Shown: one piece after another, positions 5,066 to 35,845 of the stretch
Layout of the letters: every line of letters starts with the position of its first letter
Position numbering within the stretch: the first letter of the stretch is position 1
Source: Porphyridium purpureum
Taxonomy: Eukaryota
Assembly (NCBI GenBank): GCA_008690995.1
Contig: VRMN01000001.1
Coordinates: 2,728,001 to 2,792,000, forward strand
DNA: 64,000 bases
Direction: 5' to 3'
Program-made: the position numbers and the translations under genes
The notes under the pieces: model-generated
Databases searched by the model: none
Seen by the model: only the letters and a program-made list of their open reading frames with translations
Told to the model about the DNA's origin: nothing

Positions 5066-5232
5066 TCATCCAAGTTCATCAACTCGCTGCGTCGTGTTGT
5101 CCCCGGCACACACGGCTTGTCCCTCGCACCATCTGCACTCCGGCTCAGAATCCCCCCATCCAACATGAGCTGAGTGGAAAAAAGCGGGACAGTCCACTGT
5201 ACACCACTCGCCCCAAGAAACCGAAACTTCTT

Positions 5233-5320
5233 CGGCTATTCGGCTATTCGGCTATTCGGCTATTCGGCTATTCGGCTATTCGGCTATTCGGCTATTCGGC
5301 TATTCGGCTATTCGGCTATT
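5233..5320. repeat. Perfect tandem repeat (CGGCTATT)x11
   Basis: Read directly; lies between two divergently transcribed genes. Confidence 0.97.
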
Positions 5321-5426
5321 CCAAGTGGGACATGTCTGGGGAAACGGGACGGCGAGAAGTAGCGGGTTCGAGGGTCAGTGATGCAGGAGCAAGACCTTGA
5401 CGCACGCATGTGCGTGGTGCGTAGCG

Positions 5427-21211: not shown

Positions 21212-21598
21212 TGCGAAGCGCGTCTGCTCTGTCCACAGCACCACGCCCGCCTTCCCTCTCTCTCTCTCTCTCTCCACCAGCGCAGGCGCGCGTTGTCGCG
21301 CGCTCTTTTCAAGTCTCGCAGCCGCCAGGTGTGTGTGTGTCCCACACATGTGTCTGTCCCGCCATGCGTCACATGCGACGCGACCGTTACGCTTCTGCAC
21401 GAGCTGCGGGACAACGGTCAAGTGTCGGTACAGCAATACTGTACACTATACCAACTGTACATCTCTCTCACTCTCATCCAAAAAGCCAAACTGTACTCAA
21501 CCGCGCTCGATCGTTCTTTACTGTACACAGCTGTACTCCATCCTGTATTCTTTTTGCTTTGATGATAGCGTCTTCGTGAAGCACGCGTATACCAAACG

Positions 21599-21856
21599 TG
21601 TACCAATAGTAACCTACTGGTGGCTAGCTGAAGCAAGAGGTCCACAACAAGACGACTTTACTCCTTAACACAACCTAGCTCTTACCTCAAAAGAAGACAG
21701 AGCGCCGACTCGTCGGCCGTCTCTCACACTCTAATGATATACTACTGTGGTTAACCATTACGGTCACCAACCAACGGAGAGTTGTCATCATTAAGCATTT
21801 GATGACTCCTCATCACGTCATCAGGCAGGCAGAGAGGGATGACAATATTCCACGCA
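21599..21856 (-). repeat. Probable 3' LTR of element A (ends uncertain)
   Basis: Follows the PPT and starts with TG; TATA-like and AGTAAA motifs on minus strand; no second copy available to confirm the ends. Confidence 0.5.
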
Positions 21857-21894
21857 CCCCCTCATCACTTCTGCGCTGGCTGCAAAGGAACGAA

Positions 21895-24800
21895 TCACAC
21901 TCGCTCGACAAGGTGCCAGCGGGTGTACGGATCATTGTCACACGACATTTTCTCATCATCATGGCTGTACGCATAGCCACGCATGCCAGCACCATCGTCG
22001 CAGTCGTCGGGCTGCATGAGCATCGCGAAGGCGTTGCCACGGTTTGCGGCGGAGCGAGCATGCGTCAGACGCTGGGCGATGCCAAGGGATAAGCTTGCAC
22101 CGTACAGGCCCCACGCGGCTGCATGGCCGCGAAACACGTCGGTGGCAATCGGCTTCGTCAAGCCGTCAGCGATGTTGTCGCGCGTAGCGACATAGACGAA
22201 CCTGACGAGTCCGTCCGCTGCTATCTCGTGCAACCATCTCAGAGAGATGCGCTGCATCTTTGGCGCATGCAGTAGCCGGTCACTGTGGCCGCGCTCCACC
22301 GCGCGCAAAGTCGACTCGTTGTCGCACCGCACAACGATCGGAGGCCAGCGCCTCAAAAGTTCTTCCGCCAGTGTCGCCACTGGGAACACGCTGCCTTGCG
22401 CTGCGTCGTGCAGCGCTACCAACTCAGCCTCGGTCGTCGAGGTGCTGACGCGCCGCTGGCGCCGACTGGTCCAATCTACAAGGTGTTGGCATCTGCCATT
22501 CGATATGAAGAGCACGGCGCCGCTCGTGGATGACGGTGCCGAAAAGTCGGCATCAGCCCACGCGTGCAACCGAACGTCGCGACTGCCTGTCGCGGGTATG
22601 TCGTATTGCAGACAGACGTCCGCATGCTTCTTCAGATACCCGACGATCTCGTCGAGCGCGCGATCCGCGCTTGGCCCCCACCGGTCGACATAACGCGCCA
22701 CATGCGCCGTGGCATAAGCGATGTCTGCTCGCGTGGTTCGGCTGAGCCACAGCAGTTGGCCAATGACTGTTCGCTTGTTCGTCGGGCACGCGCGCCCGCC
22801 GGGTCCATTGTCGTCGACCCGCTCGCTGAGTGGCGTGCTGCGCACGCGCAAGTTGTCCGCGGTGTGGCCGTTCGCCACATGGGTGGCGTACACCCCCGAA
22901 TCCAATATCCATCGGCCGCCGTCGCGATAGATATGCATGCCGAGATACTTGATAGGGCGCGTACGCGCCGAGTCTGCAATGTATTCGACCTTCTGGTCGA
23001 TTCTGAAAACGGTCTTCAGTTGTTTGACCGCCACTCGTACCGCATCCGCATTGCCGAAGAGTGCGCCATCGTCGACGTACATGCTCAGCGTGAGCATGCT
23101 GCCGTTCGCGTCGCGGCGCCAGTACTGGTTCTTGTCCGCGTTGGATTCTTGCCATCCAAGCCGCCGGACACGCTCGCGAGCGTCGTGGCTGAAGTCGCTG
23201 CCGCTCCTTTTCATTCCGTACAGAGCCTGCGGTAGCTCGACGACAGGCTCGCTACACGCGGCCATCTTCCTGTAGTCAGCTTCGCTGACTAGACCCTTCA
23301 CGACCGGGACCAGGTCGCGCAGATATCCGAATGTCGGACGGCCGCCCAATGGTGCACTGGGGTAGGCACACGTTACGTCGAAGAAGGCGCCGTCGGCGGA
23401 TGGTCCATGGAGCATGAGCACCATGCTCATCGAGGCGCGGATCGCCAGCAAACCTGGTGGGCGATCAAAAGGGTACGGTTCTTCGCGCGCGCGACGCCCA
23501 TCGGCGTCCAGCACGACGCATCCTTGCGCGACGATGCGGCACTTCGTCTTGTGGAAAGACGGAGGCATTTCTGAATTCTTCTTGTTGAAGAGGAGCTTCA
23601 ACTTAACAAATTGCGCGTTCGGAACGCGCGCCGCCACTGCCTTGTCCATCGTGCGGCGGAAAGGCAGAGCGCCAGTGCTGGTGAGCGCACGAAGCTCGGA
23701 TGCTAATGCATGGCGGCCGGCGGGCGTGGCCATCGCCACCGCTGTGGCCACAACTTCTGCCACCCCCAGACCTGCCGCTTCGTCCTCTGGTCCTCCTGTC
23801 GCCGCGCTTGTGTACGTTGCGTTGCTGCTACTCTCTGCTCGCGTCGCGTCGTTCCGCGTCGCGTCACTCGCTGCTGCTGCGTGCACTGGAAGCACACCCA
23901 GTTCCGCTGCGCGCGCGCGCAAGCCGGCTGGTTTGCGGCCGCGCATGAAGAATGCTGGCCTACCCGCGATGGCAAGCCAGTCCTCACCAAAACGGGCAAT
24001 GCCTTCGGATATGGCAATGTCCTCGGCCGGACTCCACGGCAGCTCAATGCGCCGATACTGTGCACGCGACGCGAGCTTTCCGTGCTCGTCTCGGTTGCAC
24101 TGGCAGTGCATTTGCCTGCATGCGCCGTCACCAGTGTGACGTCGGTTGGGCGCCGGACCCAAAATGCATTTCTCGCATTCGGTGCTCCCACCGACTATTT
24201 TCTTGCACTGTGTGCAGAATGCACGGTCCGGTGCATTGTCGCGTGCTCGCGACCATTGATCACCCGTCGCAATGGCCTCATCCGGAGGCCGCAGTGCCAA
24301 ACGTCGCAATGGCCACCTGTCGGGAAGTGGCTTCCATTCGCCGACCTTCCTGATCGCAGATGGCCGCAAGTCGGCAATGGGCAGGGCGAGCAGGTTTATC
24401 GGCTGCCGCCGGTCATTTGGCCTCGGTGCCGTGAACCCAACGACGATTGCAGGCAAGCCTTTCGGCTCAAATTTGCCGCGGCTCTCATCGTATATGAGAA
24501 TGCCGCTCCCGAATCCAGGGATGGGCTTGTGCCATGTCAGACCGAGCCGTTGCTCGAAGCTGGTCTGCTCCTGCTTTGCGCCGCGCCAGGCGAGGTTTCT
24601 GGCCAGGCAAAAGTAGGCGGCGGCGAACGGATACCACGCGGTCGGCAAACCAGACTGCATCAGCAGTGCTCGCACTGCTCCGTTCAAGTCTGCGTGCTTG
24701 CGTTCATGCGTCACGTGCGTGTTCGCCCGGTACGGTACACCAGTGACTTTCTTCACGCCCTTTTCCGCGATGAATCCGTCGAATTCGCCCATGAACTCGC

Positions 24801-26718
24801 GGCCCTCGTCACACCGCAACACTCGTGGCCAATCACCACGTCCGCGCTGCAGCTCCGTCAACCCGCGAATGCACTCAGCGGCGGACTTGTCCGCCAGCCC
24901 AATTGCTGAGAACCACCCAGTTGCTTCGTCGAGGTGAGTGAGCAGCCACCTGCTGCCCTCCACGGCTGCCAGTCCGGGATCCACAATGTCAATCGACACC
25001 ACGTCGTTGAACTCGCGCGCTCGTCCGCGCTCTTTGCCAACCGAGTCGTCTCGCCTCACAGCACGCGCGCGCCGCAGCTTTGCCGCGCTGCATATTCCGC
25101 ACGTGTCGCGCGACGGCATGTGCAGAACGCAATGGTCCTGCTCTACATGCTCAGCCTCGGCTGTGCCAAGACTGTGACCGCCGATGGTCATTTCGAAGCG
25201 GTTGGCTCGAAGCCAATCGAGACCGATCACGAGGTCATTGTGGCCATTGTACACGACCACGTCCTGCTGCTTCTCTGCTGAATCCAGCACCGCCAGATTC
25301 ACTGTCGCGCGCCCGCGAGACATGCACTGCGTGCCGTCTGCCAATCGAATGGTCAAGGCATTCGCGGTGCTATTTGTGCGCACTCGCACCATCGCGCATG
25401 CGCTCTCGCTCAGAAAGGTGTGCGTTGCGCCGGTATCGATGACTGCTTTCATCGCCCGGCCGTTCACCCAAGCATTCACCTTGAGCAACCCTTTGCCCGC
25501 ACTGGCGGTCATCAACTCGGCCCCGCCGAGATTGGCATCGCGATCATCGCGCCTATCTGCACAGTTGTGCGTCGCTGGCCCCCACACGGAGCACCGATGG
25601 CAGTAATAGCGCCCACGCTGATTACTCTTCTTGCCATCTTGTTGCGACTTCGGCGTCTGTCGCGGTCGTGGTCTACTGGCACCGCCTCGTTGCGGTGCGC
25701 CACGCTTCTGTCCGCGCCCACGCGCGTCGTTCTGGCCGCCACCACGGTTCCAACCGTGCGTGCTCGGCTCTCGCCAGCCGCCGTCTCGTCCGTCCGCGCG
25801 GCTCTGCGCGTACTGCTCTGCATGATTCGCACGCAGGTTCCGGTGCGGTCCAGCTGGTGACCATTGGTCATGCTGTTGCTGTTGATACTCGTTCGAGCGA
25901 TCCCGCTGGAAGTCGTTGTATCCTCGTTCGTGCACCCGTGCGCGGCTGCCGCTGGCGGTGCCCAAGTCCATTGGCACCGGACCATGCTGGTTATAGTTCA
26001 TCTGGGGGTGGTATGCAGGCTGCATGGCTGACGGGTACGTGCGTGCTGTGATGGGCTGCTGGTCTCGACCACGCTTAAATATGACTTTGTCGGCAACTAG
26101 AGCCAAACGCAAAGCGTCGTCATAGGTGGGAGGGAAGTGAAGCGCTACGTGAGTGGCAATAGAAGTGTCAAGAGATTCTGTAAAATAGTGAAGTTTATCT
26201 TTGTCTACCAAATTTGGTATACGCAGACAAACTTCACTAAATGCAGCTTCAAAATCTTGGACACTCATTGCACCCTGCTTCATCTTTTGCAGTTCATCCC
26301 GCACGTCATTTTCTGTTTCTTTTGGCTCGAAGCGCCGCTGAAGCGCGAGCAGAAACTCTTCTACCGAGGTGGGTCTCTGATCAGGTTGTAATGCCTGGTA
26401 CCAGAGTTGCGCCAATCCGAAGAGGTGAGTCGAAAGCGTCGACACTGCTTCCTCTTCCTCGGTTTCCGTCCAAAGACGGCCCTGCGACCGCCAATCCGAG
26501 CGCGCCGGGTTGTACACCCGCGAACGCGCTGCTGCCGTCCAGGTCATAATGGCCGCAGTGGATCGCTCGCCGCCATAGTACAGCATGGCCGCAGGGCGCA
26601 TGCAGCTCGGCAAAGCGCCACTTCCACCGGATCCATCGCGAAGCGCCCTCAGACGAACGTTCTCGCTCCGCAGCTCGGCGAGCTCACTCTGAACAATCGC
26701 CGTCCGGGTATTCAGTTC
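21895..26718 (-). CDS. Element A Gag-PR-INT-(Cys-rich/Myb)-RT-RNase H polyprotein, N-terminus removed
   Basis: PVPMDLG, VIDTGATHTF, HxxxHxPxxxxCxxC, D..D..E integrase, ALYGMK, MYVDD, WADADF, NIADGLTKP. Confidence 0.92.
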   Translation of the reverse strand, partial: ELNTRTAIVQSELAELRSENVRLRALRDGSGGSGALPSCMRPAAMLYYGGERSTAAIMTWTAAARSRVYNPARSDWRSQGRLWTETEEEEAVSTLSTHLFGLAQLWYQALQPDQRPTSVEEFLLALQRRFEPKETENDVRDELQKMKQGAMSVQDFEAAFSEVCLRIPNLVDKDKLHYFTESLDTSIATHVALHFPPTYDDALRLALVADKVIFKRGRDQQPITARTYPSAMQPAYHPQMNYNQHGPVPMDLGTASGSRARVHERGYNDFQRDRSNEYQQQQHDQWSPAGPHRNLRANHAEQYAQSRADGRDGGWREPSTHGWNRGGGQNDARGRGQKRGAPQRGGASRPRPRQTPKSQQDGKKSNQRGRYYCHRCSVWGPATHNCADRRDDRDANLGGAELMTASAGKGLLKVNAWVNGRAMKAVIDTGATHTFLSESACAMVRVRTNSTANALTIRLADGTQCMSRGRATVNLAVLDSAEKQQDVVVYNGHNDLVIGLDWLRANRFEMTIGGHSLGTAEAEHVEQDHCVLHMPSRDTCGICSAAKLRRARAVRRDDSVGKERGRAREFNDVVSIDIVDPGLAAVEGSRWLLTHLDEATGWFSAIGLADKSAAECIRGLTELQRGRGDWPRVLRCDEGREFMGEFDGFIAEKGVKKVTGVPYRANTHVTHERKHADLNGAVRALLMQSGLPTAWYPFAAAYFCLARNLAWRGAKQEQTSFEQRLGLTWHKPIPGFGSGILIYDESRGKFEPKGLPAIVVGFTAPRPNDRRQPINLLALPIADLRPSAIRKVGEWKPLPDRWPLRRLALRPPDEAIATGDQWSRARDNAPDRAFCTQCKKIVGGSTECEKCILGPAPNRRHTGDGACRQMHCQCNRDEHGKLASRAQYRRIELPWSPAEDIAISEGIARFGEDWLAIAGRPAFFMRGRKPAGLRARAAELGVLPVHAAAASDATRNDATRAESSSNATYTSAATGGPEDEAAGLGVAEVVATAVAMATPAGRHALASELRALTSTGALPFRRTMDKAVAARVPNAQFVKLKLLFNKKNSEMPPSFHKTKCRIVAQGCVVLDADGRRAREEPYPFDRPPGLLAIRASMSMVLMLHGPSADGAFFDVTCAYPSAPLGGRPTFGYLRDLVPVVKGLVSEADYRKMAACSEPVVELPQALYGMKRSGSDFSHDARERVRRLGWQESNADKNQYWRRDANGSMLTLSMYVDDGALFGNADAVRVAVKQLKTVFRIDQKVEYIADSARTRPIKYLGMHIYRDGGRWILDSGVYATHVANGHTADNLRVRSTPLSERVDDNGPGGRACPTNKRTVIGQLLWLSRTTRADIAYATAHVARYVDRWGPSADRALDEIVGYLKKHADVCLQYDIPATGSRDVRLHAWADADFSAPSSTSGAVLFISNGRCQHLVDWTSRRQRRVSTSTTEAELVALHDAAQGSVFPVATLAEELLRRWPPIVVRCDNESTLRAVERGHSDRLLHAPKMQRISLRWLHEIAADGLVRFVYVATRDNIADGLTKPIATDVFRGHAAAWGLYGASLSLGIAQRLTHARSAANRGNAFAMLMQPDDCDDGAGMRGYAYSHDDEKMSCDNDPYTRWHLVERV

Positions 26719-27017
26719 TGTTATCCGTTCGACCCCAGTCACCTAGAACGGTTCGGTTAATCCGAAACCGGTAAGCCGTTAAACCGGTAGACCGTTTAAC
26801 CGTTTCTAGAAGCTTCTAGAGGTTCCAGAACCTTCTAGACGCGCGCAGAAATGCCAATGATTTGCATTGTCATTTCTCTTGGCGCCTTGCTGTCCCTGGC
26901 GGAAGTAAGGGTATAAAAAGGCGACGCGCCTGCCCGGACTAGCCGGTCAGGTCTTGCTCGGAGACAGAAGAGGTAAGAAGAAGACGCAGAGAGTAAAAAG
27001 GCACAGCATTGGTAACA
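26719..27017 (+). repeat. 5' LTR of element B (299 bp)
   Basis: TGTTA...TAACA termini; direct repeat of 31888-32185; TATAAAA at 26912. Confidence 0.96.
26804..26840. promoter_or_regulatory. Tandem heat-shock-element-like arrays in the LTR
   Basis: TTCtaGAAgcTTCtaGAg and TTCcaGAAccTTCtaGAc, ~70 bp upstream of the TATA box. Confidence 0.7.
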
Positions 27018-27019
27018 TT

Positions 27020-27027
27020 TGGTATCA
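27020..27027 (+). other. Primer-binding site (tRNA-iMet-like)
   Basis: TGGTATCA 2 bp after the 5' LTR. Confidence 0.85.
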
Positions 27028-27584
27028 TCGCTGGTTACCTGGGGTTGCTCTAAGGTTCTCTTTGAGTTTCTCTGGGGTTGCCTGGGTGGGAGAGTCTGCG
27101 GGTAAGGGGGTTCGAGTAAGTCGATCCGGAGGGTGCGACGGGTGGAAGCGGGTCTCAGTCTTGGCTGTACGATAGGCCTAGGCCTTGACGGCGGACTCGC
27201 TCTCTGCCTTAGCACGTATTAGTAGGCAAGAGCCGTAACGGTCAGCCTTCACTAGGATTCATCCTAGTGTCGCACGACCACCTTTGCGAAGGTAGGCGCC
27301 GAACACCTCCATACAAGATCGCATCTATAATCCCCGCCCCAGTGCAAAGGCCCGGGCCGCTCCCCATCCAGCGCAACAGAGGAGGATTGCTGTGTGCTTT
27401 GTTGTGTGTGCGTGAGAGGGTTGCTGTGCGTGTGTGTGAGTGAGAGGACCGCTTCGTGTGTCGATTTGTGTTCGTGAGGGCGACCGAGCCCGTTCGTGGT
27501 GCGCGCAGCCGTTCGAGAGTGTGAGCAGCGGAGACTCGCTGTTTGTGTCGTTGTCGTCGTTTAGTGTGCTTGTTTCCAGAAAGC

Positions 27585-28391
27585 ATGGAGATTGATTCGG
27601 AGACGCTGGGACCACGTGGCCCGAAGGAGGCCCGTCTGATGAGGTTCGACGGGAAGCGTGACCTTCTCGTTGTGAAGACGTGGTTGTTCCAGGCGAGAAA
27701 GAAGATCTTGGGCCGGCTGTTGGAGAGCATCCACCCGGACGATTTGGAGAAACGTCTGCTTGCGGAGAGGCGTGCTGTGGACCTGGCATCAGACTACTTC
27801 GAGGGAGAGGCGCTTCATTGGTGGGTTCTAAACTGCGAACGCTACCCGCATGAGATCCCCACGACGTGGAATGATTTTGCTGCCCTCGTGAGTGCTCGGT
27901 TCACGCCGCAGGATTCGATCAGGCGTGCAAGGGACAAGTTGACGCGTCTTTCGCAGAAAGGCCCGGCCCATGCGTATGTGGCGGCTTTTCAGGACGCGGC
28001 ACTTGTGATTCCGGACTTGTCGGACGCAGAAATGATGGACCGCTTTGTGAGGGGTCTGAAGCCCGAGGTCCGCTTGGAAGTGTACAAGCGAGGAGTGAGT
28101 ACGTTCGCGGAGGCTGCGCAGGTGGCGGTGGTCGTGGACGACGCCATTCATGCGACCCGCGGCGTGCGTGATTCAAGTGTGAGGGCGCCATTTTTCGGTC
28201 GTGCAGCGCAGGAAGGACCTGTCCCGATGGAGCTGGGACATGTGCAGGGTCAGAGGCGTGTTCGTACCGAGCTCAAGTGCTGGAATTGTGGAAGGCCGGG
28301 ACACATCGCCAGGACGTGTCCCGAGGCAAGGAAGACTATCCAGCAGCTGGAGGGAGACTCGCTGGAGTCAAAAAACGAGGAGCTCGAGTAG
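27585..28391 (+). CDS. gag: Element B Gag
   Basis: Retrotransposon capsid-like region, PVPMELG and CWNCGRPGHIARTC zinc knuckle. Confidence 0.93.
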   Translation: MEIDSETLGPRGPKEARLMRFDGKRDLLVVKTWLFQARKKILGRLLESIHPDDLEKRLLAERRAVDLASDYFEGEALHWWVLNCERYPHEIPTTWNDFAALVSARFTPQDSIRRARDKLTRLSQKGPAHAYVAAFQDAALVIPDLSDAEMMDRFVRGLKPEVRLEVYKRGVSTFAEAAQVAVVVDDAIHATRGVRDSSVRAPFFGRAAQEGPVPMELGHVQGQRRVRTELKCWNCGRPGHIARTCPEARKTIQQLEGDSLESKNEELE

Positions 28392-31300
28392 AAAGGTTCC
28401 TCGGACAGTCAGAGGGAAAGGAGGCTCGCAGGCGTTACGAGACCTCTAGGGGCGGCAATGAAGACCGCTGTGGTGGCCTTGGTAAGCCAAGGTCTGGCTG
28501 TCCGACACCTTGTGGGCGAAACTCGAGCGCAAATCAGCCCGTGATCAAGGAACTTGGAGGGATGGGAGCTGCCATGCTTCTTCGAGTTCGAGGAAAAGTG
28601 CACAAGTCCGACGGAGAGGCCACGTTTTTGATTGACAGTGGCGCGACGGACAACTTCATGAGCGTGGACTTTGTGCTGAAATCCGACGGCCTGAAGCAGA
28701 AGGCGTCGTGGAAGAGAGATCATGTGACCCTAGCGGATGGGTCTGTATTGGAAACAGCCGGAGAAGTTTCCAATGTCAAGTTTGAACTGAGCGATGGGTA
28801 CTCAGGGGCCGCTAACTTTGCCATTTGCCGGATTGCGGGACAAGACGCAATCTTGGGCATGGAGTGGCTGAAGCGGGAGAACCCAGTGATTGATTGGCAG
28901 TCTGGCATGTTGGCCTACGGAGAGAAGAAGGCCTGGAGCATGACGCAGATGCTGGTGCCGCGGAAAGAGCTCCGTCGGCTGTTGAAGAGTCAGGAGGTAG
29001 AAGAGTGCTACCTCGGCGTGCTGAAAGGAAGGGAGGAGCCCTGTTCAGTGGAGCGCAAAGGAGATGACTCTGTGAAGAAGATGCTCAAAGATTTCGAAAG
29101 TCTGTTCGAGGAGCCGCGAGGGCTGCCTGAGAGCCGAACAGTGGAGCATGTGATTAGGCTGAAAGATGAGAAGCCTGTGAGAGTGGGCAGGGTCTACCGA
29201 CTGAGCCCTGCGGAGTTGAAAGTCCTCCGAGAGACTTTGGATGACTTGCTGGATAAGGGATTCGTCCAGCCGAGTCAGAGCCCGTTTGGAGCACCCGTGC
29301 TGTTCGTGAAGAAGAAAGACGGCAGCATGAGGATGTGCGTTGATTATCGGGCGTTGAACGACGCAACTGTGAAGGACCGGTATCCGTTGCCGAACATGGA
29401 TGAGTTGCTGGATCGACTGGGCGCAGCTCACTGTTTCTCAAAGTTGGATTTGGCATCGGGATACCACCAGTTGCGTGTTCGGAGAGAGGACGTGCCGAAG
29501 ACCGCGTTCCAGACCAGGTACGGACAGTTCGAGTTCCGTGTGATGCCGTTTGGTCTTTGCAACGCGCCGGCAACTTTTCAGAGGGCCATGAACGAGCTGT
29601 TTGCAGATCTGCTGGACAAGACCGTCATTGTCTACTTGGACGATATTTTGGTCTTTACCAAGGATAGGCAGTCGCACGGCGAGGTCCTGAAGGAAGTGTT
29701 GTCGCGCTTGCAAAAGGCAGGGTATCGTTTGAAGCGCAAGAAGTGCAGCTTTTTCGTTTCTGAAGTCGAATACCTGGGGAACATTGTCGGCAACGGTTGC
29801 GTGAAGATGGATCCACGGAAGGTGGAAGCTTTGAGAGATTGGCCAGTGCCAAAGACGGTGACGGAGTTGAGATCCTTTTTGGGAATGACAAACTGGTTTC
29901 GCAGGTTTGTCAAAGGATACTCTACCGTCGTGGCGCCGCTGACTTCGCTGTTGCAGAACGCAAAGTCGAAGAAGCAGCTGATCGAACTGGGAGATGAAGG
30001 CAAATCGGCCTTCAAGAAGATTGTCGGGATGTTGACGGAAGCGCCGGTGTTGGCCTTGCCAGACCCTGAAAAGCCATTTGAGGTGTACACGGACCGCTCC
30101 GAAGTCGCGGTGGGGGGATGGCTGGCACAGGAAGGCAGACCGGTCGCGTTTACGTCGAGGAAGCTGCTGGACCGAGAGACCAGGTACAGCAGCTATGAAG
30201 GTGAGCTCATGGCCGTCATTCACTGTCTGCGAGAGTTTCGACCTTATCTGTACGGGGCAAAGTTTGTGCTTCACACAGATCATGAGGCGTTGAAACATCT
30301 GATGACGCAGAAGGAGCTGAATGGCCGGCAAGCACGGTGGTTGGACTTTTTGGCCGAGTTTGATATCACAATCGACTATGTGAAGGGAAAGTCGAACGTG
30401 GTGGCCGATGCTTTGTCGAGAAAGCCAGAGTTGCATGCGCTAGAGTACCAAGTTCGGTGTGATGAATTTGGTGCGGGGTTCCAGGCATTCGTGGGTTCGT
30501 ACTCGAGTGACCCAGACTTTGGTGCTTTGATGGGGGATTTACCGACCCACCAAGGCTTTCGAACCGAAGCTGGGCTCTTGTACTTGAGGAATCGCGTTTG
30601 CGTGCCGAGGAAGTTCAGAGAGCGTGTCATGCAGCTCCACCACGATATCCCGACAGCAGGACACCGTGGAGCCGACACGACGTATGCATCTTTGATCACT
30701 CGCTTCTACTGGCCAAAGATGAAGCGAGACGTGAGCCGTTTTGTGAAGACTTGTCACGCGTGCCAAGTGACAAAGTCTGAGAATCGGTCGTTTGGAAAGC
30801 TGAAGCCCTTGTCGATCCCAGAAGGACCTTGGGTCGACATTTCGATGGACTTTGTGACGGAGCTGCCTCGGAGCGAAGGCAGCTGTGATGCAATCATGAC
30901 TGTGGTGGATCGCTATTCGAAGATGGCGCTGTTTATCCCGACGCGCAAGGACTTGACAGCAAAACGTTGTGCTGACTTGTTCGTGAAGCACGTCGTGAGC
31001 CGTTTCGGATACCCCAAGTCAATTGTATCGGACCGAGATCCGCTGTTTACGTCCACGTTTTGGCAGCAGTTGAGCAAGCGGGTGGGCATGAAGTTGGCTA
31101 TGTCTGCCGCCAACCACCCGCAGACTGATGGCCAAACTGAGCGAGTGAACCGGGTGATTCGGGAAATGCTCAAGTTAATGGCGACGAATAGTGGCTGGGT
31201 GCGAGACTTGCCGTTGTACGAGTTTGCGTACAACTCTGCACCAAGCAGTGCCACTGGATTCGCGCCGTTCAAAGTGGTATATGGAAGGGATCCTTGGTTT

Positions 31301-31768
31301 CCACCGAGCGAAGGGTGGAGGCCTGCGCGCGACGGACAGACAAAGGACATGGCGGAGCACTGGTTTCGCCTGTGCAAAGTCCATGAAGAAGTCCGCGACA
31401 ATTTGATCGAAGCCCAGGGGAGAATGCAGAAGTTCTTCGATCGACGCAAGGATGCCCGGGAGTTTCAAGTTGGTGATCAAGTGTTGATCACGGCGCCGCA
31501 ATTGCGGCCGAACAAGAGTGATTTGGCGGCACCAAAGTTTCTTGGTCCGGTGCCTGTCATTGAGAAGGTAAGCTCGCATGCTTACCGAGTGATTTTGCCC
31601 GAGGGTGTGGCTTGTCATGATGTTTTTCCGATCCAACATCTGAAGCCATACTATGGACGCGAAGACTACATGGCAGGGGAAAATGATGAAGAAGTACCCG
31701 ACGACCTGCCAGCGTCCGATTCTGAGCCAGACTTGTTGAAAATTATCGAAGAGTCTGACTCTGAATGA
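28370..31768 (+). CDS. pol: Element B Pol (PR-RT-RNase H-INT) in the -1 frame relative to gag
   Basis: LIDSGAT, YLDD, RNase H DALSR, HHCC and DDE integrase, GPY/F-like motif; no chromodomain seen. Confidence 0.95.
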   Translation, partial: KKRGARVERFLGQSEGKEARRRYETSRGGNEDRCGGLGKPRSGCPTPCGRNSSANQPVIKELGGMGAAMLLRVRGKVHKSDGEATFLIDSGATDNFMSVDFVLKSDGLKQKASWKRDHVTLADGSVLETAGEVSNVKFELSDGYSGAANFAICRIAGQDAILGMEWLKRENPVIDWQSGMLAYGEKKAWSMTQMLVPRKELRRLLKSQEVEECYLGVLKGREEPCSVERKGDDSVKKMLKDFESLFEEPRGLPESRTVEHVIRLKDEKPVRVGRVYRLSPAELKVLRETLDDLLDKGFVQPSQSPFGAPVLFVKKKDGSMRMCVDYRALNDATVKDRYPLPNMDELLDRLGAAHCFSKLDLASGYHQLRVRREDVPKTAFQTRYGQFEFRVMPFGLCNAPATFQRAMNELFADLLDKTVIVYLDDILVFTKDRQSHGEVLKEVLSRLQKAGYRLKRKKCSFFVSEVEYLGNIVGNGCVKMDPRKVEALRDWPVPKTVTELRSFLGMTNWFRRFVKGYSTVVAPLTSLLQNAKSKKQLIELGDEGKSAFKKIVGMLTEAPVLALPDPEKPFEVYTDRSEVAVGGWLAQEGRPVAFTSRKLLDRETRYSSYEGELMAVIHCLREFRPYLYGAKFVLHTDHEALKHLMTQKELNGRQARWLDFLAEFDITIDYVKGKSNVVADALSRKPELHALEYQVRCDEFGAGFQAFVGSYSSDPDFGALMGDLPTHQGFRTEAGLLYLRNRVCVPRKFRERVMQLHHDIPTAGHRGADTTYASLITRFYWPKMKRDVSRFVKTCHACQVTKSENRSFGKLKPLSIPEGPWVDISMDFVTELPRSEGSCDAIMTVVDRYSKMALFIPTRKDLTAKRCADLFVKHVVSRFGYPKSIVSDRDPLFTSTFWQQLSKRVGMKLAMSAANHPQTDGQTERVNRVIREMLKLMATNSGWVRDLPLYEFAYNSAPSSATGFAPFKVVYGRDPWFPPSEGWRPARDGQTKDMAEHWFRLCKVHEEVRDNLIEAQGRMQKFFDRRKDAREFQVGDQVLITAPQLRPNKSDLAAPKFLGPVPVIEKVSSHAYRVILPEGVACHDVFPIQHLKPYYGREDYMAGENDEEVPDDLPASDSEPDLLKIIEESDSE

Positions 31769-31873
31769 CTTGGGAATTGTGAGAAGTTTGCTAGGCAGAG
31801 GTTTTCTCCCGGAGCGCGGGTTCCTCGAGCCAAGAATGCAACTTAGTTTGAAGTCTCGCCGAGACGTCGAGCC

Positions 31874-31887
31874 AAGAGGGGGGGAGA
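31874..31887 (+). other. Polypurine tract of element B
   Basis: AAGAGGGGGGGAGA immediately before the 3' LTR. Confidence 0.92.
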
Positions 31888-32185
31888 TGTTATCCGTTCG
31901 ACCCCAGTCACCTAGAACGGTTCGGTTAATCCGAAACCGGTAAGCCGTTAAACCGGTAGACCGTTTAACCGTTTCTAGAAGCTTCTAGAGGTTCCAGAAC
32001 CTTCTAGACGCGCGCAGAAATGCCAATGATTTGCATTGTCATTTCTCTTGGCGCCTTGCTGTCCCTGGCGGAAGTAAGGGTATAAAAAGGCGACGCGCCT
32101 GCCCGGACTAGCCGGTCAGGTCTTGCTCGGAGACAGAAGAGGTAAGAAAGAAGACGCAGAGAATAAAGGCACAGCATTGGTAACA
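31888..32185 (+). repeat. 3' LTR of element B (298 bp)
   Basis: Direct repeat of 26719-27017, with differences seen only near the poly(A)-signal region. Confidence 0.96.
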
Positions 32186-35100
32186 TTGGAACTCGTGCGG
32201 AAACTAGGATATCCTTCTATTCGCGCGGTGAGGCAAGGAATGATTAGCGGTGCGATCAAGAACTGCGATGTGACAGTACGCGACATCGATAGAAGCATCG
32301 CGCTCTGGGGACCTGCACTTCCTGCCTTGAAAGGACGTACGACGGGTCACAAAACACCTGCCGTGCCCGAAGCTCCTCTGACGATGCCGTTCAGGGACGC
32401 ACAAATGTGTTGCGATATTATGGCCGTGGACCGAAACCTGTTCTTGATTTCAGTAGTCAAACCATTTCAGTTTTTCATGGCCACGCCAATTAGGAACAAA
32501 TCAGCGGAGGACATTCACGCAGCCCTGACGAAGCAGCTGAAGACGTTGCGTGGGCACCAAGTGATCGTGAGAATGATACACTCGGATCGAGAGAGTGGCG
32601 TAAAGGCCGTGGTTGACTGGATGCATGAGAACGGGATATTGCCAGAGTTGACCGGGGCAGGGGAAGCGGTTCAAGCAGCCGAGCGCGGCATTCGACTGGT
32701 GAAAGAACGTGCGCGCGCGGTGATTAGCGGGTTGCCGTTTGTGTTGCCTCGCCTGCTCGTGCCTGCCCTTGTCGAATATTGCGTTCAGCGCATAAATGGC
32801 CTGCAGAGTAGTGTGTCCAGTGGGGCTCTTTCGGGTAGGTCCCCGAAAGAGGAGATGACGGGTCGTGTATTGGACGCGAAAAGGGACCTTGCCCTCGGGT
32901 TCGGGGACTACGTGCAAGTGCACGCCGCGCATGTGGACAATAGCATGGCAGAGCGCACAGTGGGGTGCATCGCACTACATCCCACTGAAAACTTGTCCGG
33001 GGCGTGGAACTTCTTGAATCTGAATACAGTAGCAATGACTGTGCGGCAAAGCTGGACTAGTTTGCCGACGCCTGATTTTGTACTTGATAGGCTCAACGAG
33101 CTCGCGGCGACAAGAGGGCAAGTGGAAGTCGGCATCGAGGGAAATGCGAGCGTCAGCCTGGACGAGCAACAGCAAGGGCTCCCCGCGGAGGGCGCAGGCG
33201 AAGAGGGAGAGTTGGAAGAACAGTCGGAAAACGAACTCCCAGACATGCTGGAGGGCGATTGGGAAGAGTCAATGGAAGATGGTGGGATACGGGATCCAGA
33301 GCATGCGATGAAGTCGAGCAAAGCATCTGTGACACCGGATGGTGAGGTGGCAGTTGGAGTGGCTGAGCAGAGGGACGTTCCGAGCGTCACGGACCTTCCA
33401 GCCGTGATGGAGCGGCCTGATGCAGAACACGAGACGCGAGAAGGTGGAACTCTAGAACCTAAGAATGCTTTGCAACAGAGTCCGTCCATGGATACGTTCG
33501 TGAGTGCGGACCGTCGCGAACAAAGAAATATGACGGTAGTCTCAAATGCTCAGAATGCTTTGGAGGATCAAATTGGCTGCACGCGTGAGCTCAATGAGCC
33601 TCGAGGCGAACGACCGGGGGAATTGCGCAGTGTTGCGGGTCGGACGTCCGATAAGGAAGGCATCGATGAGCCGAGAGCGCAGATAGCTGGGAAACGAACA
33701 CAAGATAACACAGGTGACGATTGGGAGCGCAACCTGCGCGCGCGCATTATGCCAGCCCCTATGCTGCACGAAACGGTTGGTGCTGGGCACGCAGAACAGC
33801 GGAGCGCGCAGGCCCCAAAAGCAAGTTTAAGCGCTCCGCAAGGCGCGGCGTTGTTTAAGTCTGAGGGGCCAACGAGCGCAGCGAGTCGGAAAGCGTCGCG
33901 CCACGGCCCCAGGCGGAGCCTGCGGCCGGGGGTACAGTTGGAGGTACAGTGCCCTACTACTGATCCCGGGACTGCCGACGCTGTGCTAAGGGGCGCTGTA
34001 ATCGATGCTCGGCTTGCTGAACTCGAGACTCGAGAGCGTCAGCTGCTGAGGGCCATAAGACTGGCCTCTATTGAGAAGCGATTGAAGGAAATCGATGCCA
34101 GGGAAGAAGAGCTGAGGCTGGAGAAACGGCTGAAGCGAAAATCTCGGGAGGCGGGGAACGATGAACACGCCGAGGACGATGCAGAAGCGACGTCGACAAA
34201 ACGCGCCAGGGCATTCGTGGTGAAGGCGGTCCGCGCGGGCATGGCGCTGAACTTATCTGTGAAGAAGGCGATCAAGAAATTCGGGTCCAAAGCAATGGAA
34301 GCAATAGTGCGCGAGGTGGCCCAGTTGGATCAGCGCTACGGGTACGGCGTTGTGGAGCCTGTCGATACCAAGACCATGACGCCACAAGAGAGAAAGTCCA
34401 TTATACCGTCACATATGTTTGTGAAGGAGAAACTGGACTCGACTGGGGCTGTGGAAAAGGTGAAGGCGCGTATTGTGGCAGGTGGCAACAAACAGGACGC
34501 CGTCCTGTACCCCGACAGATCGGCGCCCACCGCGGCCACAGATAGCGTTCTGATCTTGGCTGCCATTGCGGCGAGAGAAGGCAGATCCGTTGGGAAAATG
34601 GATTTCCCCGGCGCGTTCCTTCACGCGCCGATGCCCGCCGACGTGCCGGACACTCATATGAGAATTGATAGCTTCCTGGCTGACGTGCTAGTCCGACTGG
34701 ATCAAAAGTACGAACAGTACTTGCGAAAGGATGGGTCACTCGTTGTCAAGCTGACGAAAGCGTTGTATGGCACTTTGATCGCGGCACGACAATGGTACAT
34801 GAAAGTTGCGGGGCTGTTCGAGGATCTGGGATTCGTGGTAAATCCTTATGATGCATGTGTGTTTAATCGAGAGTCCGTGTCGATGATTCTCCACGTGGAC
34901 GATGTCATGCTATTCGGCAAGTCGGAGGCTGCGGTGAAAGGTGTCATGAAAGAAGTTAGAGACAAGTACCCCGGACTGACGTGCGAAACCGGAGTCAAGA
35001 TCGATTATCTCGGAATGCTGTTTGACTTTCGAAAAAAGGGATTCGTGACCATCAGTATGCAGGGGTATGTTGATGCGCTCATTGAGGAGAGCGGCACGAG

Positions 35101-35845
35101 AGGCACCGCCAAAACGCCAGCAGGCGCTTCTCTGTACGAAGTGCGCAGCGATGCAGTTGGTCTCGGTGCAGAGCGAGCCAGAAGGTACCACACCCTAGTC
35201 TGCAAACTTCTGTATTTGGCCAAGCGCATACGACCAGACTTGCTCACAACGGTGGCAATGTTGGTGACGAGGACGGATAAGCCGAGCGTAGATGATGAAA
35301 TGAAGCTGAGCCGCGCTCTCAAGTACCTCAACGGTACCCGCGGCCTGCATCTGACTTTGGGCGCGAGTGATGAGCTTGCAGTAATAGGAGCGGTGGACGC
35401 TTCATTCGCGGTGCATGCTGACTGCAAAAGTGTCAGCGGCACAGCAGTGACACTCGGGCGCGGGACCATATTTGCGAAAAGCGCAAAGCAGCGGCTGGTG
35501 ACCAGAAGTTCGACAGAAGCGGAACTAGTCGGAGCCAGCGAAGCGCTCGGACAAGTGTTGTGGACAGCAAACTTTCTCAAGTCGCAGGGGTACAAGGTCA
35601 AGGAAAGCGTGATTTTACAAGACAATCTGTCCACGATTGCCATGTTGCAGCGCGGAAGGTCGAATTCTGCGAGGACCAGACACGTGAATATCCGTTATTA
35701 TTTCGTGCACGACTACCTGAGGCGCGGCGAACTGAGAATAGAGCACTGTCCGTCCCAGGACCTTGTGGCAGATATACTCACGAAGCCGATCCAGGGTGAT
35801 CGTTTTGTGAGGTTAAGAGACAAGTTGTTGGGTGTCACGGAGTGA
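32186..35845 (+). CDS. Element C INT-RT-RNase H polyprotein (gag and protease absent)
   Basis: HSDRESG...AERGIR integrase, KARIVAGG, KALYG, HVDD, VDASF, HVNIRYYFV, ADILTKP; frame uninterrupted. Confidence 0.93.
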   Translation: MELVRKLGYPSIRAVRQGMISGAIKNCDVTVRDIDRSIALWGPALPALKGRTTGHKTPAVPEAPLTMPFRDAQMCCDIMAVDRNLFLISVVKPFQFFMATPIRNKSAEDIHAALTKQLKTLRGHQVIVRMIHSDRESGVKAVVDWMHENGILPELTGAGEAVQAAERGIRLVKERARAVISGLPFVLPRLLVPALVEYCVQRINGLQSSVSSGALSGRSPKEEMTGRVLDAKRDLALGFGDYVQVHAAHVDNSMAERTVGCIALHPTENLSGAWNFLNLNTVAMTVRQSWTSLPTPDFVLDRLNELAATRGQVEVGIEGNASVSLDEQQQGLPAEGAGEEGELEEQSENELPDMLEGDWEESMEDGGIRDPEHAMKSSKASVTPDGEVAVGVAEQRDVPSVTDLPAVMERPDAEHETREGGTLEPKNALQQSPSMDTFVSADRREQRNMTVVSNAQNALEDQIGCTRELNEPRGERPGELRSVAGRTSDKEGIDEPRAQIAGKRTQDNTGDDWERNLRARIMPAPMLHETVGAGHAEQRSAQAPKASLSAPQGAALFKSEGPTSAASRKASRHGPRRSLRPGVQLEVQCPTTDPGTADAVLRGAVIDARLAELETRERQLLRAIRLASIEKRLKEIDAREEELRLEKRLKRKSREAGNDEHAEDDAEATSTKRARAFVVKAVRAGMALNLSVKKAIKKFGSKAMEAIVREVAQLDQRYGYGVVEPVDTKTMTPQERKSIIPSHMFVKEKLDSTGAVEKVKARIVAGGNKQDAVLYPDRSAPTAATDSVLILAAIAAREGRSVGKMDFPGAFLHAPMPADVPDTHMRIDSFLADVLVRLDQKYEQYLRKDGSLVVKLTKALYGTLIAARQWYMKVAGLFEDLGFVVNPYDACVFNRESVSMILHVDDVMLFGKSEAAVKGVMKEVRDKYPGLTCETGVKIDYLGMLFDFRKKGFVTISMQGYVDALIEESGTRGTAKTPAGASLYEVRSDAVGLGAERARRYHTLVCKLLYLAKRIRPDLLTTVAMLVTRTDKPSVDDEMKLSRALKYLNGTRGLHLTLGASDELAVIGAVDASFAVHADCKSVSGTAVTLGRGTIFAKSAKQRLVTRSSTEAELVGASEALGQVLWTANFLKSQGYKVKESVILQDNLSTIAMLQRGRSNSARTRHVNIRYYFVHDYLRRGELRIEHCPSQDLVADILTKPIQGDRFVRLRDKLLGVTE

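What the first reader, a model, noticed from the sequence alone, without database searches (positions are those of the whole stretch)
23895..24040. TRF/telobox-like Myb domain embedded between integrase and RT of element A
Seen: WSPAEDIAISEGIARFGEDWLAIAGRPAFFMRGRKPAGLRARAAEL follows the Myb/SANT pattern W-x3-ED-x2-(I/L)-x2-G-x3-FG-x2-W-x2-I...F...R-x4-L-x2-R, with the third Trp replaced. Known: integrase C-terminal modules direct target choice (chromodomains in chromoviruses, the Ty5 targeting domain). I know of no Myb domain in this role. Inference: a captured DNA- or chromatin-binding domain used to target integration.
Basis: partly seen in the sequence, partly recalled or inferred. Interest (0 to 1): 0.85.

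Follow-up and report, generated by a model that had tools for sequence, protein, structure and literature searches.

The report
Copia integrase tail carries Myb domain
A jumping gene of a single-celled red alga carries a small Myb-type domain just behind its integrase, kept in eleven distantly related families of such elements in that alga, where it likely helps the integrase grip host DNA when choosing where to insert.

Summary
Window 23887-24054 (-) encodes a Myb-family helix-turn-helix inside an intact polyprotein of a young Porphyridium purpureum LTR retrotransposon. The element has a copia-type pol behind a gypsy-type gag and protease. A profile from eight other families scores the domain at E 9e-9, AlphaFold2 gives three helices (pLDDT 79.5), and the best single-domain sequence matches are telobox proteins (Tbf1, TRF1). 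Eleven diverged families, all named P. purpureum, keep it while the flanking linkers drift, so it is under selection. It follows the integrase core, an SH3-like barrel and an unnamed Cys/His module, and precedes the inferred integrase/RT junction. Several close relatives lack it. The telobox base-reading Asp and Arg are not kept, and the copy here lies among ordinary genes, so telomere targeting is unlikely. A role in target capture is inferred from position and from R2, Ty1 and Tal1 precedents; no insertion-site survey was possible. Myb-guided targeting is known in non-LTR R2 elements. I found no report of a Myb in an LTR integrase tail. New variant of a known kind.

The parts
23887..24054 (-). 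Myb/telobox-like three-helix domain (aa 897-952); predicted helices at 23989-24030, 23965-23982 and 23899-23931
24097..24216 (-). Unnamed Cys/His module (7 Cys + 1 His in a conserved pattern), likely metal-binding; wider in this copia lineage than the Myb
   Evidence: pattern in 38 of 186 stored proteins; alignment; pLDDT about 87-90; only a weak Pfam hit, zf-piccolo E 0.027
24325..24513 (-). SH3-like barrel, the usual integrase C-terminal domain
   Evidence: model; SH3/Tudor-type barrels at Z up to 7.3; relatives hit PF25597 SH3_retrovirus
24673..25008 (-). Integrase catalytic core with D585, D645, E680 (D,D35E spacing)
   Evidence: PF00665 E 3.8e-8
25087..25155 (-). Integrase N-terminal HHCC-like zinc motif
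   Evidence: sequence
25183..25506 (-). Gypsy/retrovirus-type aspartic protease
   Evidence: PF13975 E 1.5e-10, PF08284 E 6.3e-7; aligns with the protease of gypsy element B
26095..26460 (-). Gypsy-type capsid (gag)
   Evidence: PF03732 E 3.9e-12, PF19259 E 1.2e-10
23779..23886 (-). Low-complexity spacer behind the Myb, not conserved between families
   Evidence: z -1.1 to 1.5 against shuffles in 11 of 11 comparisons
23743..23778 (-). Inferred integrase/RT cleavage region: a short hydrophobic motif at the start of the conserved RT block
   Evidence: recurs at the same place in relatives; the cleavage itself is inferred
22753..23742 (-). Copia-type reverse transcriptase, YVDD at 23068-23079
   Evidence: PF07727 E 5.2e-6, below its cut-off; tree
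22108..22575 (-). Copia-type RNase H
21857..21866 (-). Polypurine tract before the 3' LTR
   Evidence: sequence, next to the LTR edge seen
21557..21855 (-). 3' LTR of element A; the TG...CA ends would be 21852 and 21560, so each edge is uncertain by 3 nt
   Evidence: contigs of X1, X2 and X11 branch at 21557 and 21855
21895..26718 (-). Element A gag-pol ORF, open throughout; its first 75 or so codons and the 5' LTR are missing here, replaced by the LTR of gypsy element B from 26719

Best explanation
The segment is a conserved Myb-family domain that follows the integrase core, an SH3-like barrel and a Cys/His module in a copia-type retrotransposon polyprotein; it likely stays on the integrase after cleavage and likely acts as a DNA-gripping tether that biases where the element inserts. 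Shown: sequence family, predicted fold, position, retention in 11 diverged families while the linkers drift, and basic charge in element A. Inferred: capture from a host telobox-type (Tbf1/TRF-like) gene, once, followed by spread among Porphyridium copia families by recombination; cleavage downstream of the domain; binding to host double-stranded DNA with a specificity other than the telomeric one, possibly loose or family-specific; and, through this, a bias of integration towards tolerated sites in a gene-dense genome.
For: Fold and family; the Atlas search gives Myb-clan clusters at 0.85 or less, a lead only. Selection: A's Myb aligns with z 4.8-30.4 in 10 of 10 other Myb families, the two flanking linkers with z -1.2 to 1.5 (one linker is only 13 aa). 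These families are 30-52% identical to A over pol. In P0021 the second half of the Cys module is deleted and the Myb is kept in frame. Position: order core - SH3 - Cys - Myb - RT start. In P0017 the Myb ends 6 residues before the RT block; in P0066 it lies upstream of a basic Arg/Pro motif of the kind that ends copia integrases (motif recalled; sequence). Charge: pI 10.6 in A and 9.4-11.5 in 8 of 11 families. Precedent: the integrase C-terminal region decides target choice in copia Tal1/EVD (PMC11735389, passages); Ty1 integrase binds Pol III (PMC8487063, abstract and opening); R2 ZF1+Myb give target-DNA affinity (PMC11204384, Introduction and Discussion); a TRF1 Myb fused to the TRAS1 nuclease directs cutting to telomeric repeats (PMC2868851, passages).
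Against: No binding data and no set of insertion sites: no genome is held and the metagenome scan found nothing. Close relatives lack the Myb: P0018 (47% identical), P0022/P0173, and the P0030/P0034/P0037/P0179 group, so it is dispensable for the lineage. The recognition helix is the most variable helix, and P0017's copy scores only 6.3 bits with the leave-out profile. Two families have acidic domains (pI 4.5 and 4.7), which does not fit DNA binding. All Myb-bearing families share one RT clade but not one integrase lineage, which would also fit an RT-linked role. Structure scores are modest: Foldseek E 0.3 or more, VIA Z 5.9 tied with a bacterial HTH. Within family A the copies are too young to show selection: 3 of 54 Myb columns vary, against 5.8% in RT and 6.3% in integrase.
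Confidence: 0.5

Rival explanations
1. Cis role: the domain binds the element's own LTR or cDNA ends, helping intasome assembly, cDNA protection or autoregulation of transcription, and does not choose host sites. This would resemble the Myb/SANT proteins of PIF/Harbinger transposons that bind their own ends (recalled, not checked).
For: A recognition helix that differs by family would fit co-evolution with family-specific LTRs.
Against: No repeated motif stands out in A's LTR: only short two-copy repeats. The position matches known targeting modules.
Confidence: 0.2
2. SANT-like protein tether: the domain binds histones or a host chromatin or transcription factor instead of DNA, and targets integration indirectly, as Ty1 does through Pol III.
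For: Acidic domains in P0032 and P0066; P0032 weakly matches the CHD1 HTH family PF23588 (best E 0.0024); third Trp and telobox base-reading residues not kept.
Against: Element A and 7 other families are basic. SANT and Chd1 entries rank below telobox and c-Myb in sequence and fold searches.
Confidence: 0.15
3. RT accessory or slowly decaying passenger: the domain travels with the RT block and either helps reverse transcription or has no current job.
For: All Myb families fall in one 20-row RT clade (SH-aLRT 95) while their integrases come from two lineages; at least 4 state changes on the RT tree; atypical domain in P0017.
Against: The core pattern is kept at 18-72% pairwise identity while the linkers are unalignable, which a neutral passenger would not show. 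In P0066 the domain lies about 96 residues before the RT block, inside a canonical integrase tail.
Confidence: 0.1
4. Telomere-repeat targeting: the domain works as a true telobox and sends the element to telomeric or interstitial telomeric repeats.
For: Best single-domain matches are S. pombe Tbf1 (31.0 bits against 21.2 for the best other Myb repeat shown) and, for P0183, human TRF1 (E 4.4e-4). The telomeres of the rhodophytes tested resisted standard analysis (PMC3622300, passages), so the repeat is unknown.
Against: The Asp and second Arg of the telobox recognition helix are replaced in every family with a full helix (alignments; their role as base readers is recalled). The window copy lies among ordinary genes, the vertebrate-type hexamer is not enriched in the window (4 found, 9.6 expected), and the 15 listed family-A proteins carry 12 different scaffold labels.
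Confidence: 0.05

Closest known systems
Telobox Myb domains: S. pombe Tbf1/Trf1 (PDB 8ynu, 6k5u), S. cerevisiae Tbf1 (8x6d), human TRF1 (1w0t, 1ity)
   Same: Single repeat, first two Trp, Gly before the second Trp, long loop before helix 3; Ala in place of the third Trp as in S. pombe Tbf1.
   Different: The recognition-helix Asp and second Arg are not kept; the domain is embedded in a retrotransposon polyprotein; its DNA specificity is unknown.
R2 non-LTR retrotransposons (ZF1 + Myb)
   Same: A cysteine-rich module followed by a Myb in a retroelement protein; in R2 the pair recognises target DNA (PMC11204384).
   Different: R2 is a non-LTR element with an N-terminal Myb, one fixed rDNA target and target-primed reverse transcription. 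Its Myb scores Z 4.2 (8ibw, rank 47) against A's model, so the likeness is analogy, with no sign of descent.
Ty1/copia elements with integrase C-terminal target determinants (Tal1/EVD, Ty1; Ty5 recalled) and chromoviruses
   Same: Pol order PR-IN-RT-RH; an accessory segment at the integrase C-terminal end, the place where target choice is encoded.
   Different: Those use short motifs, single residues or a chromodomain that read proteins or histone marks. A folded Myb there was not found in my searches.
Ty5 / Drosophila copia 'hemivirus'-type elements
   Same: The sequence next to the LTR on the leader side (loose end of one X11 contig) shares a 12-nt string with an oligo in a yeast initiator-tRNA paper, consistent with half-tRNA priming (assignment recalled).
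   Different: Gag and protease are of the gypsy type, unlike the canonical copia gag and protease of P0176.

Membership tests
Myb/SANT superfamily (PF00249 clan) | Three-helix HTH fold | tested here: met
   AF2 helices 11-24, 27-32, 44-54, pLDDT 79.5; top Foldseek rows c-Myb and TRF, prob 0.94-0.98, TM 0.60-0.64, but E 0.3 or more
Myb/SANT superfamily (PF00249 clan) | Regularly spaced aromatic core (three Trp or substitutes) | tested here: met
   First two Trp present in A; second Trp in 10 of 11 rows; third is Ala, as in Tbf1
Myb/SANT superfamily (PF00249 clan) | Pfam gathering score of 24.4 bits | tested here: inconclusive
   A reaches 22.1 bits; 8 of 11 members match at E up to 1, best E 4.6e-7; P0019 whole protein 24.3 bits
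Telobox (TRF/Tbf1) subfamily | Single repeat closest in sequence to TRF/Tbf1 | tested here: met
   Best per-domain score 31.0 bits over profile positions 6-54 for Tbf1; TRF1 best for P0183; the fold searches tie with c-Myb
Telobox (TRF/Tbf1) subfamily | Conserved recognition-helix Lys-Asp...Arg that read the telomeric repeat (role recalled) | tested here: not met
   In A the three positions are Arg, Ala, Ala against the Tbf1/TRF1 rows; Asp is absent in all 11 families
Telobox (TRF/Tbf1) subfamily | Binds telomeric repeat DNA | not testable with these tools
   needs EMSA or SELEX
SANT (histone-binding) type | Acidic surface in place of a basic DNA face (criterion recalled) | tested here: not met
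   A: pI 10.6, net +3; met only by P0032 and P0066. Whole-segment charge, not a surface map.
Ty1/copia (Pseudoviridae) | Integrase before RT; RVT_2-type RT and copia RNase H | tested here: met
Ty1/copia (Pseudoviridae) | Copia-type gag and protease (PF14223, PF22936) | tested here: not met
   A hits PF03732, PF19259, PF13975 and PF08284 instead; P0176 hits the copia models
Ty3/gypsy (Metaviridae) | RVT_1-type RT with integrase after RNase H | tested here: not met
   element B in the same window shows the true gypsy pattern
Integrase C-terminal targeting domain | Lies within the mature integrase | tested here: inconclusive
   upstream of the conserved RT start motif in 11 of 11 families; cleavage sites not mapped
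Integrase C-terminal targeting domain | Changes the insertion spectrum when deleted or swapped; biased natural insertion sites | not testable with these tools
   no genome held; flanks of other copies not obtained

The most novel reading that the evidence does not exclude
Porphyridium copia elements carry a captured telobox-derived Myb as a swappable, sequence-reading targeting cassette on the integrase tail. Families have re-tuned its recognition helix to different host DNA motifs (basic versions) or turned it into a SANT-like chromatin reader (acidic versions), and the cassette moves between integrase lineages in a pool that also swaps gypsy gag-protease onto copia pol. This would be an LTR retroelement that picks sites with its own transcription-factor-like DNA-binding domain.
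Probability: 0.25. Interest if true: 0.85.

Novelty: new variant of a known kind. Interest (0 to 1): 0.62.

Why it matters
The LTR-element targeting modules in the papers I read work through host proteins or chromatin (Pol III, CENH3 chromatin, chromodomain marks), whereas direct DNA reading by a Myb was described there for non-LTR R2 elements. A Myb on an integrase tail would join these two solutions and offer a natural, small, variable module for testing how integrase specificity is reprogrammed. Myb-bearing and Myb-free sister families live in one small genome, so the test can start from existing assemblies. The same families also show exchange of gag-protease between the gypsy and copia superfamilies, which bears on how LTR elements are classified.

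Tried and rejected
Chance match or wrong frame: rejected. One-off insertion or assembly chimera in this copy: rejected, since 12 of the 13 listed family-A proteins that reach the region have the whole domain (one of the 12, P0006, is this copy itself; P0010 skips it; 15 of 16 members were listed) and contigs of three other runs cover the stretch. Origin from an R2-type Myb: no support (Z 4.2). Origin from the CHD1 SLIDE-type HTH: weaker than telobox (E 0.26 against 4.4e-4 for P0183), not excluded. Host donor gene: two searches for longer proteins returned only Porphyridium elements (11 of 7997 candidates scored; 2 of 9); the word filter makes this weak evidence. A region search with aa 760-1010 found only family A (1 of 7993). 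Metagenome contig scan: 441 pattern matches, none confirmed. dN/dS: not possible, no DNA of other copies held; protein variation within the family is uninformative. Fold of the Cys module: barely tested, because the SH3 barrel filled both searches. The Myb-only tree is unresolved (1 of 8 inner branches supported). The careful RT tree did not finish, so the quick tree is quoted; no AU test and no shuffled-label control were run. RNA depth over the element in X22 is low, mostly 0-6 per direction inside the ORF, and says little about expression. Four papers on telobox or TRAS1 details were not held, so the base-contact residues and a Myb-like region in TRAS1 are recalled only. No complex prediction was run. 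Earlier-notes look-ups by place, by sequence and by a longer word list returned nothing.

Full report
1. The observation. The peptide lies in frame in one open reading frame, 21895-26742 on the minus strand, from nt 24036 to 23899. On its own it scores 22.1 bits against Pfam PF00249 (E 1.6e-4), just under the curated cut-off of 24.4. Three independent checks make it real. A profile from eight other element families, leaving out A, P0017 and P0045, scores it at 28.7 bits (E 9e-9) and hits nothing else in the six frames of the window. A profile of 11 element domains retrieves 51 PDB sequences at E up to 1, of which the best 12 are all Myb, SANT or telobox proteins. AlphaFold2 on that alignment gives three helices with mean pLDDT 79.5 for the best model (others 77.7, 60.3, 59.9, 59.1). 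Foldseek ranks c-Myb R1, TRF1 and NgTRF first but with E 0.3 or more. VIA-align gives Z 5.9 (rmsd 3.2, 52 aligned) for human TRF1, tied with GcrA, Tbf1 and c-Myb, in a range the tool calls common. The fold searches alone therefore show a helix-turn-helix; the family assignment rests on sequence.

2. The element. The ORF is identical over all aligned residues to P0006 and 98% identical over the searched region to P0002; both are named as Porphyridium purpureum polyproteins in a cluster of 16, of which 15 were listed. Its order is capsid, protease, integrase, RT, RNase H. Pol is copia-type (integrase first, PF07727), but capsid and protease hit gypsy/retroviral models (PF03732, PF19259, PF13975, PF08284) and align with those of the true gypsy element B next door. 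The same hybrid layout occurs in the families of P0017, P0020, P0179 and P0183; P0038 has the same 5' half but its record ends before RT. Catalytic residues are intact. In the window the 5' end is cut off by the LTR of B at 26719. A contig of run X1 runs from A's LTR through 474 further letters into gag, which restores the normal layout, and places the LTR at about 21557-21855. The leader-side sequence beside the LTR shares a 12-nt string with an oligo listed in a yeast initiator-tRNA paper (I saw only the table row). This fits half-tRNA priming as in Ty5 and copia (recalled).

3. Conservation. Of the 13 listed family-A proteins that reach the region, 12 have the whole domain; one of these is this copy. 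The copies are too alike to test selection. A search of 1.84 billion representatives with integrase-to-RNase H returned 150 best hits. Ten of the 150 carry the domain by profile, three of them not used as seeds, and all ten are named P. purpureum. With A, and counting P0031 with P0183, this makes 11 families at 30-52% identity to A over pol. I looked up the origin of only 21 of the 150. Against each of the ten other families A's Myb aligns with z 4.8-30.4, while the linkers on either side give z -1.2 to 1.5. This is the main evidence for selection. The domain is absent from P0018 (unnamed, 47% identical), from P0022/P0173 (sister of P0183) and from the P0030/P0034/P0037/P0179 group, so elements of this lineage can do without it.

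4. Position. A model of aa 715-956 (pLDDT 82.6, pTM 0.47, which suggests separate domains) shows an SH3-like barrel, then a compact Cys/His module, then the Myb. The Cys pattern occurs in 38 of 186 stored proteins, 15 of them copies of families A and P0017, and in records from other sources, so it is older and wider than the Myb. P0019, P0020 and P0183 have the Myb without it, and P0021 has half of it. In all 11 families the Myb ends 6-96 residues before the conserved start of the RT block. In P0066 it precedes a basic Arg/Pro motif that I recall as the end of copia integrases, and a similar motif sits just before RT in Myb-free relatives. I therefore read it as the last domain of integrase; cleavage was not mapped.

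5. History. On the RT-RNase H tree (52 rows, quick search, SH-aLRT only) Myb-bearing rows fall in three subclades of a 20-row clade (support 95), needing at least 4 changes of state (on a faster tree of the same rows). On the integrase tree (42 rows) P0066 and P0176 group with a different integrase lineage (95), and P0176 has canonical copia gag and protease. So the Myb sits behind two kinds of integrase. A shared C-terminal Ala-x-x-Leu-Gly-Leu pattern suggests one capture and later swaps or losses, but the Myb tree is unresolved, no topology test was run, and no host donor was found.

6. What kind of Myb. The best full-length single-domain match is S. pombe Tbf1 (31.0 bits), which also has Ala for the third Trp; for P0183 it is human TRF1. 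Tbf1, TRF1 and TRF2 form the telobox subfamily (PMC6410037, passage). But where telobox helix 3 has Lys-Asp...Arg, recalled as the base readers, A has Arg-Ala...Ala, and the helix differs among families. The domain is telobox-like in build and probably in origin, but fails the membership test for the telomere-reading motif. It is basic in 8 of 11 families, acidic in the two with the canonical integrase, and truncated in one.

7. Mechanism. I rate a tether for target capture at 0.5. Shown are fold class, position, selection and charge; inferred are retention on integrase, DNA binding and any effect on site choice. Support is by analogy: Tal1/EVD integrase C-termini set target choice (PMC11735389, passages), Ty1 integrase binds Pol III (PMC8487063, abstract and opening), R2 ZF1+Myb bind target DNA (PMC11204384, abstract, Introduction, Discussion), and an engineered TRF1-Myb fusion redirects the TRAS1 nuclease (PMC2868851, passages). 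The one site I could see lies about 350 nt upstream of the likely start of a host ORF, in a gene-rich stretch. RNA reads of X22 leave the window sequence at 21484 (30 reads), so the insertion is probably missing in that strain. One site proves nothing about preference. Rivals are binding of the element's own ends (0.2), a protein or histone tether (0.15), an RT accessory or passenger (0.1) and telomere targeting (0.05).

8. Novelty. Ten full-text searches of the held library, judged from listings and abstract openings, showed no report of a Myb in an LTR-element integrase or of these Porphyridium hybrids. In one search none of the 20 listed papers held 'Myb-like domain', and one search returned no paper with 5 of 6 terms. 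'Myb' was absent from the main texts of PMC5890265, PMC3248453, PMC2774666 and PMC11735389 (passages only), and the first quarter of PMC6338049 lists other accessory domains. Subscription journals, Repbase, GyDB and REXdb were not searchable, and I opened no supplements, where such an annotation could sit. An unchecked note from this scan (e1-7579381) reports a Myb-like ORF ahead of gag in fungal copia elements, a different layout that hints at repeated capture; I did not test it. Verdict: a real, selected and apparently undescribed accessory domain, a new variant of the known theme of integrase-tail modules, with its function untested. Interest 0.62.

Noticed in passing
window 25183-26460 (-), and P0017, P0020, P0038, P0179, P0183: Gypsy-type capsid and protease fused in one ORF to a copia-type integrase-RT-RNase H in several Porphyridium families; P0176 and P0066 show the reverse kind of swap, a canonical copia 5' half on the same RT clade. 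Not found described in my searches; possibly as notable as the Myb.
   Followed up: partly
window 24097-24216 (-): Unnamed Cys/His module (two CxxC, His, three further Cys) behind the integrase SH3 barrel, conserved across a wide atypical copia lineage including records from other sources; no clear Pfam family.
   Followed up: partly
window 26719-32185: Gypsy element B with LTRs identical over 261 nt has A's gag on its left and a different, 5'-truncated copia (ORF 32078-35845, no Myb) on its right, with no 5-bp target duplication: ectopic recombination between two B copies, or a misassembly.
   Followed up: partly
window 21484-21557: RNA reads of X22 diverge at 21484 and a single-copy contig of X2 ends at 21477, about 75 nt short of A's LTR: the insertion, with some adjoining sequence, seems to be strain-specific.
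   Followed up: partly
window 5231-5321: Perfect array of 11.4 copies of an 8-nt unit between two divergent ORFs; the telomere repeat of this alga is unknown, and a relation was not tested.
   Followed up: no
P0022/P0173, between integrase and RT: Sister family of Myb-bearing P0183 has a coiled-coil-like segment at the same position instead of the Myb.
   Followed up: no
window 26546-27400: Element B is far more deeply covered by RNA reads than A in run X22 (hundreds against a few), summed over all copies.
   Followed up: no
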